A DNA stretch of 49,063 bases from Candidatus Magasanikiibacteriota bacterium (GCA_023246555.1 JAHFIC010000002.1:1-49063); one strand, 5' to 3'; counted from the first letter of the stretch, positions 319-44,881 are shown. Program-made: numbers and translations. The notes: generated by a model not told the origin, from the letters alone.

Positions 319-330
319 ACATTTCAAATT

Positions 331-388
331 CTATTTTCTCCCGCCCTTGGCGGGACCCCGCCTACTGGCGGTGGTACTCTCTACTTTC
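331..388. repeat. 58-nt double-hairpin element, copy A (forms the pyrC C-terminal tail and stop codon)
   Basis: CTATTTTCTCCCGCCCTTGGCGGGACCCCGCCTACTGGCGGTGGTACTCTCTACTTTC. About 85% identical to 6740-6797. Confidence 0.85.
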
Positions 389-2923: not shown

Positions 2924-5900
2924 TTATGATTGAAATTGCATAAACTCCTGCCATGATACCACAGAGATATTTTTTTCACGAAGCGTTGCTAGGCATTTCA
3001 AAAAAACTTCGGCAAATTGGGCATTGGTAATGAGCGGGATGTGATGGTCGATGGCACGGCGGCGGATCAAATAGCCATCGGTTTCGTGACGTCGCGTATC
3101 GTGTCTTGGAATGTTCACGATAAGGTCTATCGTTCGGTTCTCAATCGCGGTGGTAATATTCGGCTCAATTTCATCGCTGGCTTTAAACAAACATCTGGAT
3201 CCAATGCCGTGCGCTGACAAGACATCGTGGGTGCCCTCGGTGGCAGAAATATCCCAGCCGTTTTCTTCCAGTACGCGTATGAGCGGCACAAATTTTTCTT
3301 TCTCGTCACCTATTGAAACAAAAATGCGTTTTTTGGCGATGTGCTGTTCGGTCGCGAGCCAGGCAAGAAAAAACGCTTCTCCATAATTTTTTCCGATACA
3401 CGCGACTTCTCCGGTAGACGCCATCTCGACTCCAGCGATTGGATCTGAACCCTTCAGGCGTTGATAGGAAAATTGCGGCATTTTGACCCCGACATGGGAA
3501 AGCTCAAGCGTTTCATATGCAGGGGTGTCCGGCATGGATTTTTCGAGAAGCAAGCGGGTGGCAATATCGATGAAGTTGTGCCCCGTGACTTTTGAAACAA
3601 AAGGAAATGACCGTGACGCTCGAAGATTGCATTCGATCACTTTGAGGTCATGGTCTTTTGCAAGGAATTGAATATTAAACGGGCCAGTGACGTGAAGCGC
3701 TCGAACGATCCGCGCGGTAATCGCCTTGGCCCGGCGGATCGTTTCCAAATAGAGCCGTTGGGGAGGAAGAACAATCGTTGCATCCCCCGAGTGCACTCCG
3801 GCATGCTCGACGTGTTCAGAAATAGCTTGAATGACCACACTGCCATTGTTCGCTACTCCATCGATATCGAGTTCTTTTGCTTTGGTGATAAATTTTGAAA
3901 TGACGACCGGATGATCGGGCGAAAGTGTTGTTGCCGTATTGATGTAGGCGGTCAACTCCTCTTCAGAATACACCACATTCATTGCGGCGCCGGAAAGGAC
4001 GTACGATGGTCGCACGAGTACCGGATACCCGACCCGTGTGGAGAAGGCCTTAGCTCGAGGGAGAGTCGTTGCTTCCTCCCATGACGGCTGATCAATGTTC
4101 AAAGTAGTGAGAAGCGTGGAGAATACTTTTCTGTTTTCAGCTCGATCAATATTCTGTCCGGTTGTTCCGAGGATAGTATAGCCGTGTTTCGAAAGCGGCA
4201 AGGCAAGTGTATTTGCAATTTGTCCTCCCACAGAGACGATAATCCCCTTTGCCTGTTCAGCATCGGCAATATCTTGTATTCGCTCCAGCGTTAATTCTTC
4301 AAAATAGAGCCGGTCGGATTCATCATAATCAGTTGAAACCGTTTCGGGGTTGGAGTTGATGATGATCGTAGTTTCTTGAAGCGAACGTAGTGTCCTTGCG
4401 GTGTTGACAGCGCACCAATCAAACTCCACGGATGAGCCAATACAATATGGTCCGGAGCCGAGGACAATTATCGGCCGTTTTTTTGCGGGTGCAGAATCAT
4501 TGGTTTCACCATGATAGGTCGTGTATAAGTAATTTGTTTCGGCAGGAAACTCACCGGCAAGTGTATCAATATGCTTTACGACGGGCTGAATACCTAGGGT
4601 GATTCGGCGTTTTCGTATCGTGTCTTCGGTCAGATGTTTGATTCTTCCAATCGTTTTGTCAGAAAAGCCCATACACTTCGCGTTTCGGAACATGTCCGGA
4701 GTCAGCGCGTGTTTTTTCATCGCGTGTTTCGCCACGGCGATATTTTTTATGTGATACAGAAACCATCGGTCAATATGCGAAAGCCGGTGCGCGTGCTCGA
4801 CATCTCCGCCGCGCATAAAAAATTCCGCAAGAGCAAAAAGCCGGCGGTCAGTGGCTTCTCGGACCTCTTCTTCGTAGTTTGGGATCTGATGGGGATATTC
4901 TGTCACACCATCGGCGCCAATGTTGAGCATTCGTACCGCTTTTTGAAGGGCCTCGGGAAATGACCGTCCAATTCCCATCACTTCACCAACACTTTTCATT
5001 TCAGAACCGATACGTCGATCTGCGGATTTAAATTTTGTCAGATCCCAGCGCGGAATTTTCACCACAAGGTAATCAAGCGCGGGCTCAAAAAAGGCGCTGG
5101 TTTTTTTTGTGATTGCATTTTTGAGCTCATACAGACGGTAGCCAAGCGCGAGTTTCGCTGCCACAAAGGCAAGCGGATAGCCCGTGGCCTTGGACGCGAG
5201 GGCGGACGACCGAGAGAGCCGCGCGTTGATTTCAATCACGCGGTAGTCTCCATTTTTTGGGTTGAGCGCGTACTGGATATTGCACTCCCCGACAATGCCT
5301 AAGGCTCTGGCAGTGCGCAACGCAACCTCACGGAGCATGTGATATTCGGCATTCGTGAGTGTCTGCGATGGGGCGACAACAATACTCTCGCCCGTATGGA
5401 TCCCCATAGGATCCATATTTTCCATATTGCAGACGGTTATGGCATTATCATCGCAATCCCTCACAATTTCATATTCAATTTCTTTCCAACCACCAAGGTA
5501 TTCCTCGATCAATATTTGTGGAGCGCCCGCCAATGCCTCACCCGCCCGGTGTTTTAGTGCTTGCGGATCAAGGATTTTTCCTGATCCTAAGCCCCCAAGA
5601 GAGTATCCAGATCTCATCATAATGGGGTAGCCGATTTTTTGTGCGGCAAAAAGCGCCTCTTGAATCGTGGTTACAGCAATGCTTCTCGGTGTTGCGACAT
5701 CGATTTTTTTTAGGTATTGCTTGAAGAGTTCTCGGTCCTCGGTGCGTTTCATTGCGTCAATCGGAGTCCCAAGGACTGATACATGATATTTTTTTAGCAC
5801 CCCACTCTCTGCTAGCGCAAGTCCAAGGTTGAGCGCGGTTTGTCCGCCAAACCCAAGGAGAATGCCATCCGGCCTTTCTTTGTGAATAATCCGTGTAACT

Positions 5901-6124
5901 GATCCCGGATTGAGCGGTTCAAGGTAGAGTGTGTCTGCCATTGTTTTGTCTGTTTGAACGGTTGCAATATTTGGATTCACGAGCACGGTGCGGACACCCT
6001 CCTCTTTGAGCGCTTTGATGGCTTGAGAGCCAGAGTAATCGAATTCGCCAGCTTGGCCAATGCGTAATCCTCCGGATCCCAAGATCAAAACTTTTTTTGG
6101 AAGATTTTTCCTAAAGGAGGTCAT
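2924..6124 (-). CDS. carB: carbamoyl-phosphate synthase large subunit
   Basis: Duplicated ATP-grasp halves and the N-terminal KKVLILGSGGLRIGQAGEFDYSG motif. The start at 6124 (MTSFRKNLPKKVLILG) matches usual CarB N-terminal spacing; the longest ORF starts at 6145. Confidence 0.95.
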   Translation of the reverse strand: MTSFRKNLPKKVLILGSGGLRIGQAGEFDYSGSQAIKALKEEGVRTVLVNPNIATVQTDKTMADTLYLEPLNPGSVTRIIHKERPDGILLGFGGQTALNLGLALAESGVLKKYHVSVLGTPIDAMKRTEDRELFKQYLKKIDVATPRSIAVTTIQEALFAAQKIGYPIMMRSGYSLGGLGSGKILDPQALKHRAGEALAGAPQILIEEYLGGWKEIEYEIVRDCDDNAITVCNMENMDPMGIHTGESIVVAPSQTLTNAEYHMLREVALRTARALGIVGECNIQYALNPKNGDYRVIEINARLSRSSALASKATGYPLAFVAAKLALGYRLYELKNAITKKTSAFFEPALDYLVVKIPRWDLTKFKSADRRIGSEMKSVGEVMGIGRSFPEALQKAVRMLNIGADGVTEYPHQIPNYEEEVREATDRRLFALAEFFMRGGDVEHAHRLSHIDRWFLYHIKNIAVAKHAMKKHALTPDMFRNAKCMGFSDKTIGRIKHLTEDTIRKRRITLGIQPVVKHIDTLAGEFPAETNYLYTTYHGETNDSAPAKKRPIIVLGSGPYCIGSSVEFDWCAVNTARTLRSLQETTIIINSNPETVSTDYDESDRLYFEELTLERIQDIADAEQAKGIIVSVGGQIANTLALPLSKHGYTILGTTGQNIDRAENRKVFSTLLTTLNIDQPSWEEATTLPRAKAFSTRVGYPVLVRPSYVLSGAAMNVVYSEEELTAYINTATTLSPDHPVVISKFITKAKELDIDGVANNGSVVIQAISEHVEHAGVHSGDATIVLPPQRLYLETIRRAKAITARIVRALHVTGPFNIQFLAKDHDLKVIECNLRASRSFPFVSKVTGHNFIDIATRLLLEKSMPDTPAYETLELSHVGVKMPQFSYQRLKGSDPIAGVEMASTGEVACIGKNYGEAFFLAWLATEQHIAKKRIFVSIGDEKEKFVPLIRVLEENGWDISATEGTHDVLSAHGIGSRCLFKASDEIEPNITTAIENRTIDLIVNIPRHDTRRHETDGYLIRRRAIDHHIPLITNAQFAEVFLKCLATLREKNISVVSWQEFMQFQS

Positions 6125-7199
6125 AAAATTTTTGAAACAGACCATTTGTGTCTGTTGGTCCGGGGGTTGCTTCAGGATGAAATTGAACAGAAAAAAAGGG
6201 GAATGATTTGTGCGCGATGCCCTCGACTGAACCGTCGTTCAAGTTCCTAAAATTGACATACCAGCCGTTCGGCAGGCTTTGTTCATCCACTGCATAGCCG
6301 TGATTTTGGCTGGTGAGATAACACCGTTTCGTTTTTTCGTCTTGGCAGGGCTGATTATGTCCGCGGTGCCCGTAGGGAAGTTTATAGGTTTTTGCGCCGG
6401 CAGCAAGCGCCATGAGCTGGGAACCAAGGCAGATGCCGAAGATCGGTTTCTGATTTTTCATTACCTGTCGAAGAATTGCGATGGTGTCGGTGCATCGTGC
6501 CGGGTCTCCCGGGCCGTTCGAGAGAAGTACACCGTCAAATCTTTCACTGGTATAATCATAGTCATGCGGCACACGGTGAATGGTTACAGGAAATTCCTGT
6601 AGGCATCGGATCATGTTTTCCTTCATGCCACAGTCCACGGCAATGATAATTTTCTTCCCCTTCCCATACATTTTCTTTTTTCGTATGGAAACATTCGCAA
6701 CAAGATTCTCGCGATTCGGATCCAAAAAATTTCTATTTTCTATTTTCTCCCGCCTTGGGTGGGACCCCGTCCGCTGGCGGTGGTGCTTTCTACTTTTTCT
6801 GATAGCGCTCAGCATGACGCCAGATTCACGCAAATGACGGGTGAGCGCGCGCGTGTCGACACCGGTCAGGAGAGGAATACACTCGCGTTTCAGCCAAGAA
6901 AAAAGGGACTCTCGTCCCTCAATGTGGCTCCAGTTCTGACACGCTTCGGAAACGATCACCCCACGTGCATGGATTTTTTTTGATTCCCAGTGTCTTGAAT
7001 CCGGGACTCCATAATTGCCGATCAGCGGGTAGGTAAAAACAAGAATTTGACCTTCGTACGATGGATCGGTCAATGACTCTACATAGCCGGTCATGCCAGT
7101 GTTGAAAACAACCTCACCAAAAACGTCTTTTGGGGTAGTGGGGGAGGAGCCATGAAATGTCATGCCGTCTTTGAGCGTGAGTTCAGCAGGAAACATCAT
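6111..7199 (-). CDS. carA: carbamoyl-phosphate synthase small (glutaminase) subunit
   Basis: N-terminal CarA domain plus a class I glutamine amidotransferase with GICLG...H..E. The interdomain linker carries the 58-nt repeat element, translated as RKSRKHHRQRTGSHPRREKIENRN. Confidence 0.93.
   Translation of the reverse strand: MMFPAELTLKDGMTFHGSSPTTPKDVFGEVVFNTGMTGYVESLTDPSYEGQILVFTYPLIGNYGVPDSRHWESKKIHARGVIVSEACQNWSHIEGRESLFSWLKRECIPLLTGVDTRALTRHLRESGVMLSAIRKSRKHHRQRTGSHPRREKIENRNFLDPNRENLVANVSIRKKKMYGKGKKIIIAVDCGMKENMIRCLQEFPVTIHRVPHDYDYTSERFDGVLLSNGPGDPARCTDTIAILRQVMKNQKPIFGICLGSQLMALAAGAKTYKLPYGHRGHNQPCQDEKTKRCYLTSQNHGYAVDEQSLPNGWYVNFRNLNDGSVEGIAHKSFPFFSVQFHPEATPGPTDTNGLFQKFYDLL
6740..6797. 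repeat. 58-nt double-hairpin element, copy B (inside the carA linker, in a different reading frame)
   Basis: CTATTTTCTCCCGCCTTGGGTGGGACCCCGTCCGCTGGCGGTGGTGCTTTCTACTTTT, preceded by an extra CTATTTT at 6733-6739. Confidence 0.85.
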
Positions 7200-7200
7200 A

Positions 7201-7224
7201 AAAAAATATCCCGCCTAGCGGGAT
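7201..7224 (-). terminator. intrinsic terminator hairpin whose U7 tract runs into the carA ATG (possible attenuator)
   Basis: The minus-strand RNA reads AUCCCGC-UAG-GCGGGAU, then A and U7, then AUG of carA. It sits ~100 nt downstream of the gatB stop. Confidence 0.7.
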
Positions 7225-7320
7225 GAGTGTGTTTCGAAAAACGAAGATGTTTTCATATCCATTTCAGGGTATCAAGCGGGTGGGTGGGCGTCAACTGCAT
7301 TATCCACAGACAGGTCATAT

Positions 7321-8847
7321 TCAAACGATCTTTTCTCGAAGGAGTTTTTCTACCACCAGCGGATCTGCAGTGCCTTCGCTTTGTCGCATGACCATGCCGA
7401 CCAGAAATTTTAGTACCGGTTCTTTTCCCGATTTCCATTGCGCCACTTGCTCTGGAAATTTTTTGATAATATCATCAACCATAGCCCCCACCGCTCCAGC
7501 ATCACGTATCTGGCCATAGTGCTTTTCTTCCATGATATGCGTGGGATCCATATCTACCCCGGATTCAATCATTTCGAGAAGGATTTTTTGCGCGTTGGTG
7601 GAGTTGACCATATTGGTATAGATGAGCGAAATAAGCTCGGCAAAATTTTCTGGTGATACGCGAAGCGTTCGGATATCCTTTCTGCGCTCTGCGAGAAGTC
7701 CCATGAGTTTTGATGTCATCCAGCCGCCTGCGAGTCGGGCGGCTTTTGTCGTGGTTTCTTTATCCTTTGCTTTGATCCACGCGAAAAGCTCGGACATCAC
7801 GGCATCGGTAAATTCCGCCCATGGGGCATCTTCAGAGAGGAGTCGGGCATCACCGTACGAGAGGCCATACTCATTGTGAAATCGTTCGCGTTTTGCTTGC
7901 GGCAGCTCCGGTATTTTTAAGTCCCCTGCGATAGTAAGCGGATGAAAGGGCGGGATATCTGGTTCAGGAAAATAGCGATAATCAGCGGCATTTTCTTTGG
8001 TCCGTTGAAGAATCGTTTCTTCGTTTTTTTCATCCCAGCCGCGCGTTTGCTGCACCCAAGGTTCTTGTCTTTCAAGCATGCCGATTTGGCGTTTGATTTC
8101 AAAGTCAATCGCTTTTTCTACAGCCCGGAATGACCCCATGTTTTTTATTTCCACCTTTGGTTTCAGGGTATATCCAAGAAGCGGTTTCACGATACCGTCG
8201 ACAATTTCAAACCGTCCAGTGTCTTGCACCGAGACATTGGCTTCACAGCGCATATGCCCTTTTTCCATATCCGCATCAGAGATTTCAAGAGAGCGGAAAA
8301 GAGATCGAAGTTCTTGACAGTATACTTTCGCTTCGAGAGCGCTTTTGAAATCAGGATCGGTGACGATTTCAACAAGCGGCGTTCCAGCGCGATTGAAATC
8401 CACCAGACTAGCGTGAGATGCGTCGTGGATGAGCTTGGCCGTATCCTCTTCAAGATGCGCGCGAGTAATACCAATACGCGCCTCCTCGCGGAGATTGTCG
8501 CCGAGGGGAAAGGAAAGCGTCAGCCAGCCATGTTCAGCGATCGGTTCATCATATTGTGAAATCTGATATCCCTTGGGGAGATCAGGGTAAAAGTAATGCT
8601 TGCGGTCGAATTTTGAAACGTTGTTGATGGTGCAGTTGAGCGCTTTGCCAATCATAACCGTCCACGCGATCGCGGTTTTGTTTGGCGCCGGGAGCGTTCC
8701 TGGATGGGCAAGACAAATTTCACAAATATTGGTATTGGGTTCTTTGAGATCCGGATCATTTTTGCAAGAACAAAACATTTTGCTCTTGGTTTTGAGCTCT
8801 ACATGAACCTCCATGCCGATAATAGGGATGAAAGAAGGCGAGGGCAT
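7321..8847 (-). CDS. gatB: Asp-tRNA(Asn)/Glu-tRNA(Gln) amidotransferase subunit B
   Basis: IGMEVHVELKTKSKMFCSC motif and a GatB/YqeY C-terminal domain; 508 aa. Confidence 0.95.
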   Translation of the reverse strand: MPSPSFIPIIGMEVHVELKTKSKMFCSCKNDPDLKEPNTNICEICLAHPGTLPAPNKTAIAWTVMIGKALNCTINNVSKFDRKHYFYPDLPKGYQISQYDEPIAEHGWLTLSFPLGDNLREEARIGITRAHLEEDTAKLIHDASHASLVDFNRAGTPLVEIVTDPDFKSALEAKVYCQELRSLFRSLEISDADMEKGHMRCEANVSVQDTGRFEIVDGIVKPLLGYTLKPKVEIKNMGSFRAVEKAIDFEIKRQIGMLERQEPWVQQTRGWDEKNEETILQRTKENAADYRYFPEPDIPPFHPLTIAGDLKIPELPQAKRERFHNEYGLSYGDARLLSEDAPWAEFTDAVMSELFAWIKAKDKETTTKAARLAGGWMTSKLMGLLAERRKDIRTLRVSPENFAELISLIYTNMVNSTNAQKILLEMIESGVDMDPTHIMEEKHYGQIRDAGAVGAMVDDIIKKFPEQVAQWKSGKEPVLKFLVGMVMRQSEGTADPLVVEKLLREKIV

Positions 8848-18230: not shown

Positions 18231-20372
<2,142 letters not shown>

Positions 20373-29013: not shown

Positions 29014-29023
29014 ATACGCGCTG

Positions 29024-29044
29024 GGATGGCGGAATTGGTAGACC
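29024..29044 (+). repeat. orphan copy of the 5' part of tRNA-Leu
   Basis: TGGCGGAATTGGTAGAC (29028-29044) is identical to 29109-29125 in the tRNA. No matching anticodon arm, T arm or 3' acceptor strand follows. Confidence 0.7.
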
Positions 29045-29095
29045 TGCCTGCCGGCAGGCAGGCGCATCCCGCCAGAGGCGGGACGGGTTTACATA
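29044..29095 (+). terminator. perfect 20-nt palindrome plus a CCCGCC hairpin downstream of the substrate-binding-protein gene
   Basis: CCTGCCTGCCGGCAGGCAGG (29044-29063), then TCCCGCC-AGA-GGCGGGA (29068-29084) followed by CGGGTTT. Confidence 0.45.
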
Positions 29096-29101
29096 CATCG
29101 T

Positions 29102-29185
<84 letters not shown>

Positions 29186-29228
29186 CAATGTAAGTAAACG
29201 TATTGGATATATTTTTCTTCTTAATCAT

Positions 29229-44050: not shown

Positions 44051-44086
44051 ATTTTCGTTTTGTTTGCTACACTACTCGAAGGATAT

Positions 44087-44881
44087 ATGATAAAAAAACA
44101 AACATCCTGGGGGAATGTCGCTCTGTGGTATCACGAGCTTTTGAAAAACGGTAAAGGCACCTATCAGCACGACGTGATTCTTCCTCAGATCGTGCGATTA
44201 CTTGAGCCCAAAAAAGGACAAACGGTTCTTGATCTTGCTTGCGGACCAGGGTTTTTCGCGCGTGAATTCGCAAAAATGGGTCCGAAGGTGATTGGTATTG
44301 ATATTGCGGAAGAGTTGATTCTATTTGCAAAAAAGGCCACCGCCCTGGGCGGGGCCACGCCTACCGGCGGGAAGGTGCAAAATTTGGAGTTTTTCGTTAC
44401 GCCTGCGGATCACATTCCCATGATAAAAAATAAAAGTGTCGACGCGGTGACGATCATTCTCGCGCTTCAGAATATTGAAAACATGGCTGGTGTTTTTGCC
44501 GAATGCAGCCGAGTGCTGAAGGCTGACGGCCGATTGCTTCTCGTATTGAACCACCCCGCCTTTCGCGTGCCGAAAGCGAGCGACTGGGGGTGGGATGAGG
44601 AAAACAAGATTCAGTACCGTCGTGTTGATGCCTATATGAGCGAGGCGCGGGTAAAAATTGACATGCATCCTGGCGACGACCCATCCGTCCACACTTGGTC
44701 ATTTCATCGGCCGCTTCAGATCTACATGAAAGCACTCCATAAAGCAGGATTTTCCGTGACACGCTTGGAAGAATGGATTTCTAACCGGCAAGGCCCTAAA
44801 GGGAAGCGCTTTGCGGCAAGCGAGAAGGCACGCAAAGAGATACCATTGTTTTTATTTCTTGAAGCATTCATGGCATCATGA
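44087..44881 (+). CDS. class I SAM-dependent methyltransferase
   Basis: VLDLACGPGFF motif I. Confidence 0.85.
   Translation: MIKKQTSWGNVALWYHELLKNGKGTYQHDVILPQIVRLLEPKKGQTVLDLACGPGFFAREFAKMGPKVIGIDIAEELILFAKKATALGGATPTGGKVQNLEFFVTPADHIPMIKNKSVDAVTIILALQNIENMAGVFAECSRVLKADGRLLLVLNHPAFRVPKASDWGWDEENKIQYRRVDAYMSEARVKIDMHPGDDPSVHTWSFHRPLQIYMKALHKAGFSVTRLEEWISNRQGPKGKRFAASEKARKEIPLFLFLEAFMAS

What the first reader, a model, noticed from the sequence alone, without database searches (positions are those of the whole stretch)
6733..6797. Same element inside the carA interdomain linker, read in a different frame
Copy B is preceded by a duplicated CTATTTT. It is translated as RKSRKHHRQRTGSHPRREKIENRN, shifted by one frame relative to the pyrC copy. 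As a result the element's internal TAG is bypassed.

It sits between the CarA N-terminal domain and the glutaminase domain, a position likely to tolerate insertions. Two copies in two genes of one operon, in two frames, argue for nucleotide-level (RNA or DNA) selection or mobility. They argue against a conserved peptide function.
Basis: seen in the sequence. Interest (0 to 1): 0.6.

Follow-up and report, generated by a model that had tools for sequence, protein, structure and literature searches.

The report
Tiny twin-hairpin repeat inside carA
The odd stretch in the CarA linker is one copy of a 36-base GC-rich double-hairpin DNA repeat that has spread through this small Patescibacteria genome. 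It sits in frame inside many housekeeping genes, so here it is most likely a tolerated selfish insertion translated as a floppy loop, not a signal specific to the pyrimidine operon.

Summary
Window 6738-6796 in carA matches 329-387, the 3' end of pyrC, at 86% over 59 nt. The two copies are read one frame apart, and the pyrC frame ends at the element's TAG.

Both copies belong to a dispersed family. Its core is 36 nt and forms two hairpins: TCCCGCC-loop-GGCGGGA and CCCCGCC-loop-GGCGGTGG. This 770-kb genome holds 18 copies. Congeners hold about 12, 3 and 1, and 37 other genomes of the family and order hold almost none. Exact core matches are scattered across many Patescibacteria lineages.

At least 11 copies in this genome lie in frame inside genes (UvrB, UvrC-like, IscS-like, GlyRS and others). 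No insertion site examined is shared between species. Clean insertions are exactly 36 nt and have no target-site duplication.

In CarA the element-derived 72 nt replaces a linker of about 9 residues between the two Pfam domains. AlphaFold models the segment as a low-confidence coil.

The CTATTTT repeat is not a target-site duplication. It is a 7-nt slippage repeat inside one arm of the element. Heptamer repeats are strikingly common in this genome.

I found no transposase, no Rfam family and no terminator-like behaviour. The best reading is a selfish element like the Rickettsia palindromic elements, with an unknown mobilising enzyme.

The parts
6111..7199 (-). carA (carbamoyl-phosphate synthase small subunit), 362 aa, host gene of the insertion
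   Evidence: ORF and translation. Pfam CPSase_sm_chain 7-133 and GATase 187-360. 60-72% identical to about 120 Patescibacteria CarA proteins.
6729..6800 (-). Element-derived 72 nt (arm + core + arm) encoding CarA residues 134-157, RKSRKHHRQRTGSHPRREKIENRN. It replaces a linker that is about 9 residues long in most relatives.
   Evidence: Codon-level comparison with four relatives. Modal linker is 15 residues shorter among 120 sequences. Modelled as coil with pLDDT 65-70.
6748..6783 (.). 36-nt twin-hairpin core. Hairpin 1 is 6748-6764 (TCCCGCC TTG GGTGGGA). Hairpin 2 is 6765-6783 (CCCCGTCC GCT GGCGGTGG). Written on the + strand, which is antisense to carA.
   Evidence: Fuzzy consensus match. 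Covariance model R1 gives 54.3 bits, E 2e-10. Folds at -20.5 kcal/mol on + (z -2.6) and -14.7 on -. Two C>T changes leave G.T pairs on the + strand.
6730..6748 (+). Arm of the element with a 7-nt tandem duplication, (TTTCTAT) x2.7. This is the 'duplicated CTATTTT' and encodes ..EKIENRN. 6748 is also the first base of the core, because TRF's 2.7th unit runs one base into it.
   Evidence: TRF. Other copies carry a single ATTCTAYTTTC arm at this position.
6784..6800 (+). Other arm (TGCTTTCTACTTTTTCT), related to the TACTCTCTAYTTTCT arm of sister copies. It encodes RKSRK.
   Evidence: Alignment of copies with flanks.
329..387 (-). Sister copy at the 3' end of pyrC. The core is 339-374, and the element's TAG (331-333) serves as the pyrC stop. 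It adds about 17-18 residues compared with congeners.
   Evidence: Congener PyrC proteins end at ..LRG(Q). R1 61.8 bits.
44337..44372 (+). Third copy in the window: a bare 36-nt core inserted in frame (ATALGGATPTGG) in a class I methyltransferase gene (44060-44881).
   Evidence: A gap of exactly 12 codons in three congeners. Pfam Methyltransf_11. R1 28 bits.

Best explanation
The carA segment is one copy of a very small, non-autonomous, GC-rich palindromic repeat. Its core is 36 nt and forms two adjacent hairpins. In this subfamily the core is flanked by arms made of TCTAYTT-type heptamers.

The element has multiplied at the DNA level within this Patescibacteria genus, and versions of it occur in many other Patescibacteria lineages.

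Three properties let insertions into coding DNA survive. The core is 36 nt, which is 12 codons. Its stems are pure G/C, so stop codons can only arise in the loops or arms. And clean insertions do not duplicate the target. An insertion therefore keeps the gene open whenever it lands in a permissive surface loop.

In carA the copy sits between the N-terminal domain and the glutaminase domain. Only one of the three frames through arm, core and arm is open, and that is the frame in use. It is translated as a basic, disordered 24-residue loop.

Shown here: family membership, copy numbers, in-frame insertion, empty orthologous sites, and the loop location.

Inferred: that the segment is translated and not removed; that it is neutral or nearly so for CarA; and that a sequence-specific trans-acting enzyme, not identified here, moves it.
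For: Family membership:
- 18 copies in the 770-kb genome by covariance model, with about 12, 3 and 1 in three congeners and only 1-2 weak sites in each of 4 of 37 other family/order genomes.
- Exact 21-base core matches in 108 stretches, nearly all Patescibacteria of many classes.
- Stems are near-invariant and loops are free. The closing pair of hairpin 1 covaries (CG 13, AU 3, UA 3), and 95.8% of cells are paired.

Insertion into genes:
- In-frame insertions of exactly 12 codons in IscS-like, methyltransferase and UvrB genes, 10 codons in GlyRS, and C-terminal extensions in pyrC and another ORF. All are absent from three congeners.
- Reciprocally, congeners carry copies in LeuRS-like (+36 nt), PheT-like, DnaG-like, GrpE and Tgt genes where this genome is empty or the host segment was not found.
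- No examined site is shared between species.
- Copies are read in three frames and both orientations.

The CarA site:
- The linker is 15 residues longer than the mode of 120 sequences, and none of them shares the sequence.
- It lies between the two Pfam domains.
- AlphaFold gives mean pLDDT 91.7, but 65-70 and coil over the insert.
- The other two frames of the carA segment hit TAG (read directly).
Against: - No mobilising enzyme was found. Y1 transposase (PF01797) and the TnpB domain (PF07282) are absent from this genome and its three congeners. Where a Y1 transposase exists in two other element-bearing genomes, no core flanks it.
- The core sequence is conserved across distant Patescibacteria classes. 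A purely decaying parasite would not keep it, so some constraint must act: either a trans-acting factor or a host function.
- In this genome 11 of 12 genic sites have the same orientation relative to the gene. That could reflect selection or a strand-specific mechanism that the simple model does not explain.
- The link with 7-nt tandem repeats is also unexplained.
Confidence: 0.8

Rival explanations
1. The twin hairpin is a functional cis-element recruited by the host, comparable to REP sequences. It would act as an mRNA-stabilising or processing hairpin, a pause site, or a binding site for a conserved DNA or RNA-binding protein. The copies in carA and pyrC would then tune expression of the pyrimidine operon.
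For: - The core sequence is conserved across many Patescibacteria classes.
- The stems are maintained.
- Hairpin 1 resembles the stems of this genome's own intrinsic terminators, for example 7208-7224 between gatB and carA.
- Two copies lie in one operon.
Against: - Copies sit in unrelated genes with no common pathway.
- No site is conserved between congeners.
- Across Patescibacteria the orientation is neutral: 16 versus 16 in genes, and intergenic ++22, --22, +-10, -+9.
- There is no U-tract, and no terminator call on the carA sense strand.
- The carA copy is the most decayed of its subfamily and folds worse on the mRNA strand (-14.7 kcal/mol, z -1.4).
- About 2.5 pairs this close are expected by chance (my arithmetic).
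Confidence: 0.1
2. The element is removed after transcription or translation, as an intron-like or intein-like segment, so CarA lacks the extra residues.
For: Patescibacteria are known for insertions in rRNA genes (general knowledge). The element is a compact structured unit.
Against: - Every genic copy keeps the host frame open, including copies whose arms contain TAG in the other frames. That is expected only if the copies are translated.
- 36 nt is too short for a self-splicing intron or an intein.
- There is no Rfam match.
- The two orientations occur equally often in genes across Patescibacteria, which an RNA-level signal would not allow.
Confidence: 0.04
3. The similarity arose locally, through independent slippage or palindrome formation in AT-rich linkers or through gene conversion between carA and pyrC, without any mobile family. 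Alternatively, it is an assembly artefact.
For: Heptamer tandem repeats are abundant in this genome and flank the core. Congeners have core-less tandem repeats at the same CarA site.
Against: - 18 copies share the same 36-nt core in unique flanks on 11 contigs.
- The same core is present in independent assemblies from many studies.
- Clean 36-nt insertions lack any local repeat.
Confidence: 0.02

Closest known systems
Rickettsia palindromic elements (RPEs)
   Same: Palindromic, hairpin-forming repeats that spread through a reduced genome. They insert in frame into protein-coding genes, are tolerated in surface loops, have no transposase of their own, and have lineage-specific copy numbers. RPEs in coding genes are mentioned in PMC10969869 and PMC1779305; the rest is my own knowledge of Ogata et al. 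2000.
   Different: RPEs are about 100-150 bp and restricted to Rickettsia. This core is 36 nt (about 60-70 nt with arms) and forms two separate short hairpins instead of one long stem. It occurs in Patescibacteria and is associated with 7-nt tandem repeats. I could not run a sequence comparison with RPE consensus sequences.
Mitochondrial GC clusters, double-hairpin elements and repetitive hairpin-forming elements (yeast, Allomyces, sponges)
   Same: Short GC-rich hairpin or double-hairpin units, tens of bases long, in AT-richer genomes. They occur as single elements and as tandem arrays, occasionally lie inside rRNA and protein genes at length-variable sites, and have no known mobilising enzyme (PMC2800124 and its references to Weiller et al. 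1989; Allomyces from my own knowledge).
   Different: Those elements live in organelle genomes, have a different sequence, and in yeast have short TAG-type flanking repeats. Here the host is a free bacterial lineage, and about 60% of the copies in this genome are inside genes.
REP / REPIN elements mobilised by RAYT (Y1 transposase)
   Same: 20-40-nt GC-rich imperfect palindromes, often paired, inserted without target-site duplication. They depend on recognition of a DNA hairpin.
   Different: REPs are extragenic and carry a conserved GTAG-type tetranucleotide, and a RAYT gene is present in the genome. Here most copies are genic, no such tetranucleotide is present, and PF01797 is absent from this genome and its congeners. 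Cores do not flank the Y1 genes of other carriers.
MITEs inserted in frame in bacterial genes (e.g. Coxiella QMITEs, PMC5896051; review PMC10969869)
   Same: Non-autonomous repeats that can add peptide segments to host proteins.
   Different: MITEs have terminal inverted repeats derived from an IS, a target-site duplication of fixed length, and sizes of 50-500 bp. Here there is no duplication at clean sites, no parent IS, and only 36 nt.

Membership tests
RPE-like in-frame palindromic elements (functional class) | Multi-copy palindromic repeat with a stable predicted stem-loop | tested here: met
   18 copies. 95.8% of stem cells are paired. Fold z-scores range from -2.6 to -5.9 on the + strand.
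RPE-like in-frame palindromic elements (functional class) | Inserted inside protein-coding genes with the reading frame preserved, and absent from orthologues | tested here: met
   carA, IscS-like, UvrB, GlyRS, methyltransferase, UvrC-like and other genes. Gaps of exactly 12 codons in congeners.
RPE-like in-frame palindromic elements (functional class) | Insertion lies in a surface or permissive region of the protein | tested here: met
   For CarA only: between the Pfam domains, in a hypervariable linker, and modelled as a low-pLDDT coil.
Rickettsia RPE families proper | 100-150-bp consensus of RPE-1 to RPE-8, found in Rickettsia | tested here: not met
   The core is 36 nt and the full unit about 60-72 nt. 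The host is Patescibacteria. No sequence comparison with RPE consensus sequences was possible.
REP/REPIN-RAYT | A RAYT or Y1 transposase gene (PF01797) in the genome, typically flanked by the repeats | tested here: not met
   No PF01797 in G000-G003. It is present in two other carriers, but no core lies within 1.5 kb of it.
REP/REPIN-RAYT | Extragenic location | tested here: not met
   At least 11 of 18 copies are inside or at the ends of long ORFs.
MITE | Fixed-length target-site duplication flanking the element | tested here: not met
   Clean insertions are 36 nt with no duplicated flank (IscS-like, methyltransferase and UvrB; LeuRS-like). Where flanking direct repeats occur they measure 7 or 14 nt and belong to heptamer tracts.
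MITE | Terminal inverted repeats matching a full-length IS in the genome | tested here: inconclusive
   The core is quasi-palindromic as a whole (one search matches both strands). No parent IS was seen, but only two transposase families were searched.
Intrinsic (Rho-independent) terminator | GC hairpin followed by a U-run on the transcribed strand, placed at gene ends | tested here: not met
   No call on the carA sense strand, and only a weak call on the antisense strand. Placement across Patescibacteria is neutral in orientation.
Any curated RNA family (Rfam 15) | Match at or near the gathering score | tested here: not met
   Only a tRNA in the window at gathering threshold. Nothing meaningful at E<=5 over 6650-6880.

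The most novel reading that the evidence does not exclude
The 36-nt twin hairpin is the substrate of an undescribed insertion mechanism that leaves no target-site duplication and is conserved across Patescibacteria. It would be driven by a host or otherwise unrecognised enzyme and not by a known transposase. The same process would generate the heptanucleotide tandem repeats that pepper coding genes here. Together the two would be a lineage-wide engine of loop insertion and protein length variation in these minimal genomes.
Probability: 0.25. Interest if true: 0.8.

Novelty: new variant of a known kind. Interest (0 to 1): 0.55.

Why it matters
Patescibacteria have tiny, gene-dense genomes with few recognised mobile elements. 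This repeat shows that even there a selfish sequence can proliferate, because it is built so that insertion into a gene is usually survivable: 12 codons, stop-free stems, no duplication.

It gives a concrete source for the many small lineage-specific insertions seen in Patescibacteria proteins, and a marker for very recent genome change between species of one genus.

The core is conserved across classes, yet no known transposase accompanies it. The element therefore points to a trans-acting factor still to be found.

For annotation, it warns that basic or Gly/Pro-rich 12-residue loops such as ATALGGVPSAGG and NHRPRAGSRTLRD in these proteomes are element-derived and not functional motifs.

Tried and rejected
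1. Target-site duplication. The CTATTTT units lie on one side of the core, and clean insertions show no duplication. Rejected.
2. Operon-specific signal. The family is genome-wide, so two copies 6.4 kb apart are expected by chance. Rejected.
3. Known RNA family. Rfam at gathering and at permissive thresholds gave nothing.
4. Terminator. No U-tract on the sense strand and orientation-neutral placement.
5. REP/RAYT or IS200/IS605-derived element. PF01797 and PF07282 are absent from this genome and its congeners. Y1 genes in two other carriers are not flanked by cores.
6. Strand of selection from G.U versus A.C mismatches. I counted 5 versus 3 by hand on the sequences, which is no signal.
7. tRNA or tmRNA origin. 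ARAGORN finds no gene over the cores. Some cores lie in duplicated tRNA fragments next to intact tRNA-Ser, tRNA-Leu or tRNA-Ala genes. This is noted but not explained.
9. DNA of the closest foreign CarA with a different 51-residue linker (P0006) was not retrievable.
10. A near-identical strain lacking the insert. No CarA above 72% identity exists in the protein collection.

Full report
**1. The observation**

carA is the 362-codon ORF at 6111-7199 on the - strand. It carries Pfam CPSase_sm_chain at residues 7-133 and GATase at 187-360. Residues 134-157 read RKSRKHHRQRTGSHPRREKIENRN and are encoded by 6729-6800.

A repeat search of the whole window pairs 6738-6796 with 329-387 at 86% identity over 59 ungapped bases. 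A 31-base probe from the core had no match in 100 shuffles.

The second copy forms the 3' end of pyrC (331-1575, - strand). It encodes ..KVESTTASRRGPAKGGRK, and its TAG at 331-333 is the stop codon. carA reads the same bases one frame over, so that TAG is passed as AAA-ATA-GAA. The other two frames of the carA segment both run into TAG (read).

The heptamer duplication is real: (TTTCTAT) x2.7 at 6730-6748. The ORF beside carA (7321-8847) is GatB-like, not pyrC. The operon is carA-carB-pyrB-pyrI-pyrC.

**2. What the element is**

The common part is a 36-nt core with two adjacent hairpins. On the + strand it reads TCCCGCC-NNN-GGCGGGA followed by CCCCGCC-NNNN-GGCGGTGG.

I built a covariance model from 22 copies. 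It finds 18 copies in this 770-kb, 56-contig genome. Three congeners have about 12, 3 and 1 copies. In 37 other genomes of the same family and order there are only 1-2 weak sites in each of 4 genomes. A stricter pattern search gave the same picture.

Stems are nearly invariant and loops vary freely. The closing pair of hairpin 1 covaries (CG 13, AU 3, UA 3, UG 1), and 95.8% of stem cells pair, against 32-60% when the partner columns are slid.

An exact 21-base version of the core occurs in 108 stretches of the species-representative genome collection. Nearly all are Patescibacteria of many classes: Saccharibacteria, Berkelbacteria, Andersenbacteria, Magasanikbacteria, Paceibacterota, Microgenomates and others. 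Some genomes show bursts, for example at least 12 loci in one Berkelbacteria assembly.

**3. Evidence that it is inserted DNA and that it moves**

At least 11 of the 18 copies in this genome lie inside or at the end of long ORFs, always with the frame open.

Codon-level alignment with orthologues from the three congeners gives these results:
- IscS-like protein: a gap of exactly 12 codons (ATALGGVPSAGG).
- Methyltransferase at window 44060-44881: exactly 12 codons (ATALGGATPTGG).
- UvrB: exactly 12 codons (NHRRGRGPSGER).
- GlyRS: 10 codons.
- pyrC and one further ORF: C-terminal extensions.
- A UvrC-like gene and one other gene: larger arrays with two cores each.

The reverse also holds. Congener copies sit in LeuRS-like (+36 nt), PheT-like (+39 nt), DnaG-like and GrpE genes where this genome has the empty site. 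A further congener copy sits in Tgt, but that host segment gave no match in this genome.

No examined site is shared between species. The copies therefore arose after the species diverged.

The peptides fall into three frame classes (ATALGG.., NHR.RAGSR.., PPP.GGVP..), and both orientations occur. This rules out a conserved peptide function.

**4. The CarA site**

Among 120 CarA sequences, the stretch that is 54 residues long here ranges from 37 to 64 residues, with a mode of 39. None of the others resembles the local sequence. Several carry other, unrelated insertions at the same place, including a different twin-hairpin family in one Logan contig.

Close relatives show the site clearly: GVMLGAI - 8 to 14 variable residues - F.DPN.ENLV. 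All 72 nt between these anchors in this genome are element-like (17-nt arm + 36-nt core + 19-nt arm).

An AlphaFold model built on 94 sequences is confident overall (mean pLDDT 91.7, pTM 0.91). It gives pLDDT 65-70 and no secondary structure over roughly residues 136-166. The insert is best read as a basic, disordered surface loop.

By model score the carA copy is the most diverged of its long-arm subfamily (54 bits against 58-62). Two C-to-T changes leave G.T pairs on the + strand and C.A mismatches on the mRNA strand.

**5. The proposed target-site duplication**

Both CTATTTT units lie on the same side of the core. They sit within an arm (ATTCTAYTTTC) that sister copies at pyrC, C37, C51, C14 and C11 also carry in single form. 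The duplication is therefore a 7-nt tandem duplication inside the element.

Clean insertions have no flanking duplication at all. Other subfamilies do have direct repeats of 7 or 14 nt on both sides of the core, for example CTATCGACTATCGA | core | CTATCGACTATCGG. They also form tandem arrays with periods of 43 (36+7) and 50 (36+14) nt.

At the same protein sites, congeners often carry core-less tandem repeats with a different unit sequence. At the carA site these are AATCTCGAATTTGG x2 in one species and a 14-mer x2 in another.

Heptamer repeats are a genome-wide peculiarity. There are 14 loci with three or more perfect copies of a 7-nt unit, against 0 in a shuffled genome. Periods 6, 8 and 9 have 2, 2 and 0 such loci. 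All of the heptamer loci lie in open frames, nearly all of them longer than 200 codons.

I cannot tell which of three readings is right:
- the heptamer tracts are footprints of element turnover;
- they are preferred targets for insertion;
- they are an independent slippage process that shares the same permissive loops.

**6. Mechanism and rivals**

The best-supported reading is a selfish, non-autonomous palindromic element. Its design makes genic insertions survivable, as set out in section 3, so that selection keeps only copies in permissive loops and open frames.

A functional cis-element is less likely, for these reasons:
- Sites are not conserved between species.
- Host genes are unrelated.
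- Across Patescibacteria the orientation towards genes is neutral. In genes it is 16 versus 16. In intergenic positions the flanking-gene arrangements are ++22, --22, +-10 and -+9.
- The carA sense strand gives no terminator call.
- Rfam has no match.

Removal at the RNA or protein level is unlikely, because frames are kept open even where the arms contain stop codons in the other frames.

The mover is unknown. Y1 transposase and TnpB domains are absent from this genome and its congeners. Two other carriers do have Y1 genes, but no core lies near them.

The cross-class conservation of the core still implies a sequence-specific partner. Within this genome 11 of 12 genic sites place CCACCGCC... 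on the sense strand. That could reflect a strand-specific mechanism, but the bias is not general.

**7. Comparison with known systems, and verdict**

The element behaves like the Rickettsia palindromic elements, and like mitochondrial GC clusters, double-hairpin elements and hairpin-forming repeats (PMC2800124, PMC10969869). It is much smaller than an RPE, has a different architecture, lives in a different phylum, and fails the defining tests for REP/RAYT elements and for MITEs.

Literature searches found no description of such an element in Patescibacteria. I re-derived that reading independently here.

The carA finding is real. It is one ordinary member of an unusual and apparently undescribed repeat family.

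Noticed in passing
window 44337-44372: A third copy of the core, bare 36 nt, inserted in frame (ATALGGATPTGG) in a class I methyltransferase gene (44060-44881). Three congeners have a gap of exactly 12 codons there.
   Followed up: yes
window 29023-29101: Just upstream of tRNA-Leu(CAG) (29102-29186) lies a duplicated 5' fragment of that tRNA (GGGATGGCGGAATTGGTAGAC). It is followed by a variant twin hairpin: CCTGCCTGCCGGCAGGCAGG, then TCCCGCCAGAGGCGGGA. Other Patescibacteria genomes show the same layout, with a partial tRNA-Ser, tRNA-Leu or tRNA-Ala duplicate interrupted in its anticodon loop or T-loop by the core, next to the intact tRNA (L093, L110, L151, L106, L121, L074, L136).
   Followed up: partly
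whole genome; in the window e.g. 18456-18517: Heptanucleotide tandem repeats are strongly over-represented. There are 14 loci with three or more perfect 7-nt units, against 0 in a shuffled genome and 0-2 loci for periods 5, 6, 8 and 9. All of them lie in open frames, nearly all longer than 200 codons, where they are read in all three frames in turn. In the window, (GCTTTCG)x3.4 followed by (GCTGAKA)x5.9 lies in a 713-codon ORF. The cause is unknown. The arms of the twin-hairpin element are built from such heptamers.
   Followed up: partly
L012 (G002 carA), L013 (G003 carA), L027 (G002 IscS-like), L034 (G002 UvrC-like): At sites where this genome has the core, congeners carry core-less tandem repeats of unrelated unit sequence. 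Examples are a 14-mer x2 in carA and (GAATTTG)x4 in the IscS-like gene, the latter without any change in protein length. These are either footprints of element turnover or independent repeat hot spots.
   Followed up: partly
L154 (Logan contig, CarA linker); L027 and L021 (G002 IscS-like and UvrB): Other, unrelated GC-rich hairpin families are also inserted in frame in Patescibacteria proteins. One example is CCCTCTCCTTTGCGAAGGAGAGGG...CCCCTCTACTGCAGTGGAGGGG in another CarA linker. The phenomenon is therefore broader than this one family.
   Followed up: no
L052, L060, L064, L070, L071, L074, L103, L107, L115, L128, L132, L136, L143: A long-loop variant of the element. Hairpin 1 encloses about 20-22 AT-rich bases (TTTCCCGCCAC...AAGGCGGGACCCCGCC...) and is often set within a further outer inverted repeat.
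   Followed up: no
window 7207-7225: A terminator-like hairpin, ATCCCGC-TAG-GCGGGAT followed by a T-run on the - strand, lies between gatB and carA. Native terminator stems of this genome (also C2:7601 and C45:4452) use the same CCCGCC/GGCGGG stem as hairpin 1 of the element. This may point to where the hairpin module came from.
   Followed up: no
L172 (G063:C25, about 39.9-40.1 kb): In an Andersenbacteria genome, a Y1 transposase gene is followed by a palindrome ending in CTAC...GTAG and then by CCTGCCTACCGGCAGGCAGG. The latter is the same hairpin family that sits beside the variant element at window 29042-29061. It may be a separate REP/RAYT-type system.
   Followed up: no
window 6111-6145: The carA stop and the carB start overlap by 35 nt. 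The carB ORF (2924-6145) begins inside the 3' end of carA, which fits a tightly coupled operon.
   Followed up: no
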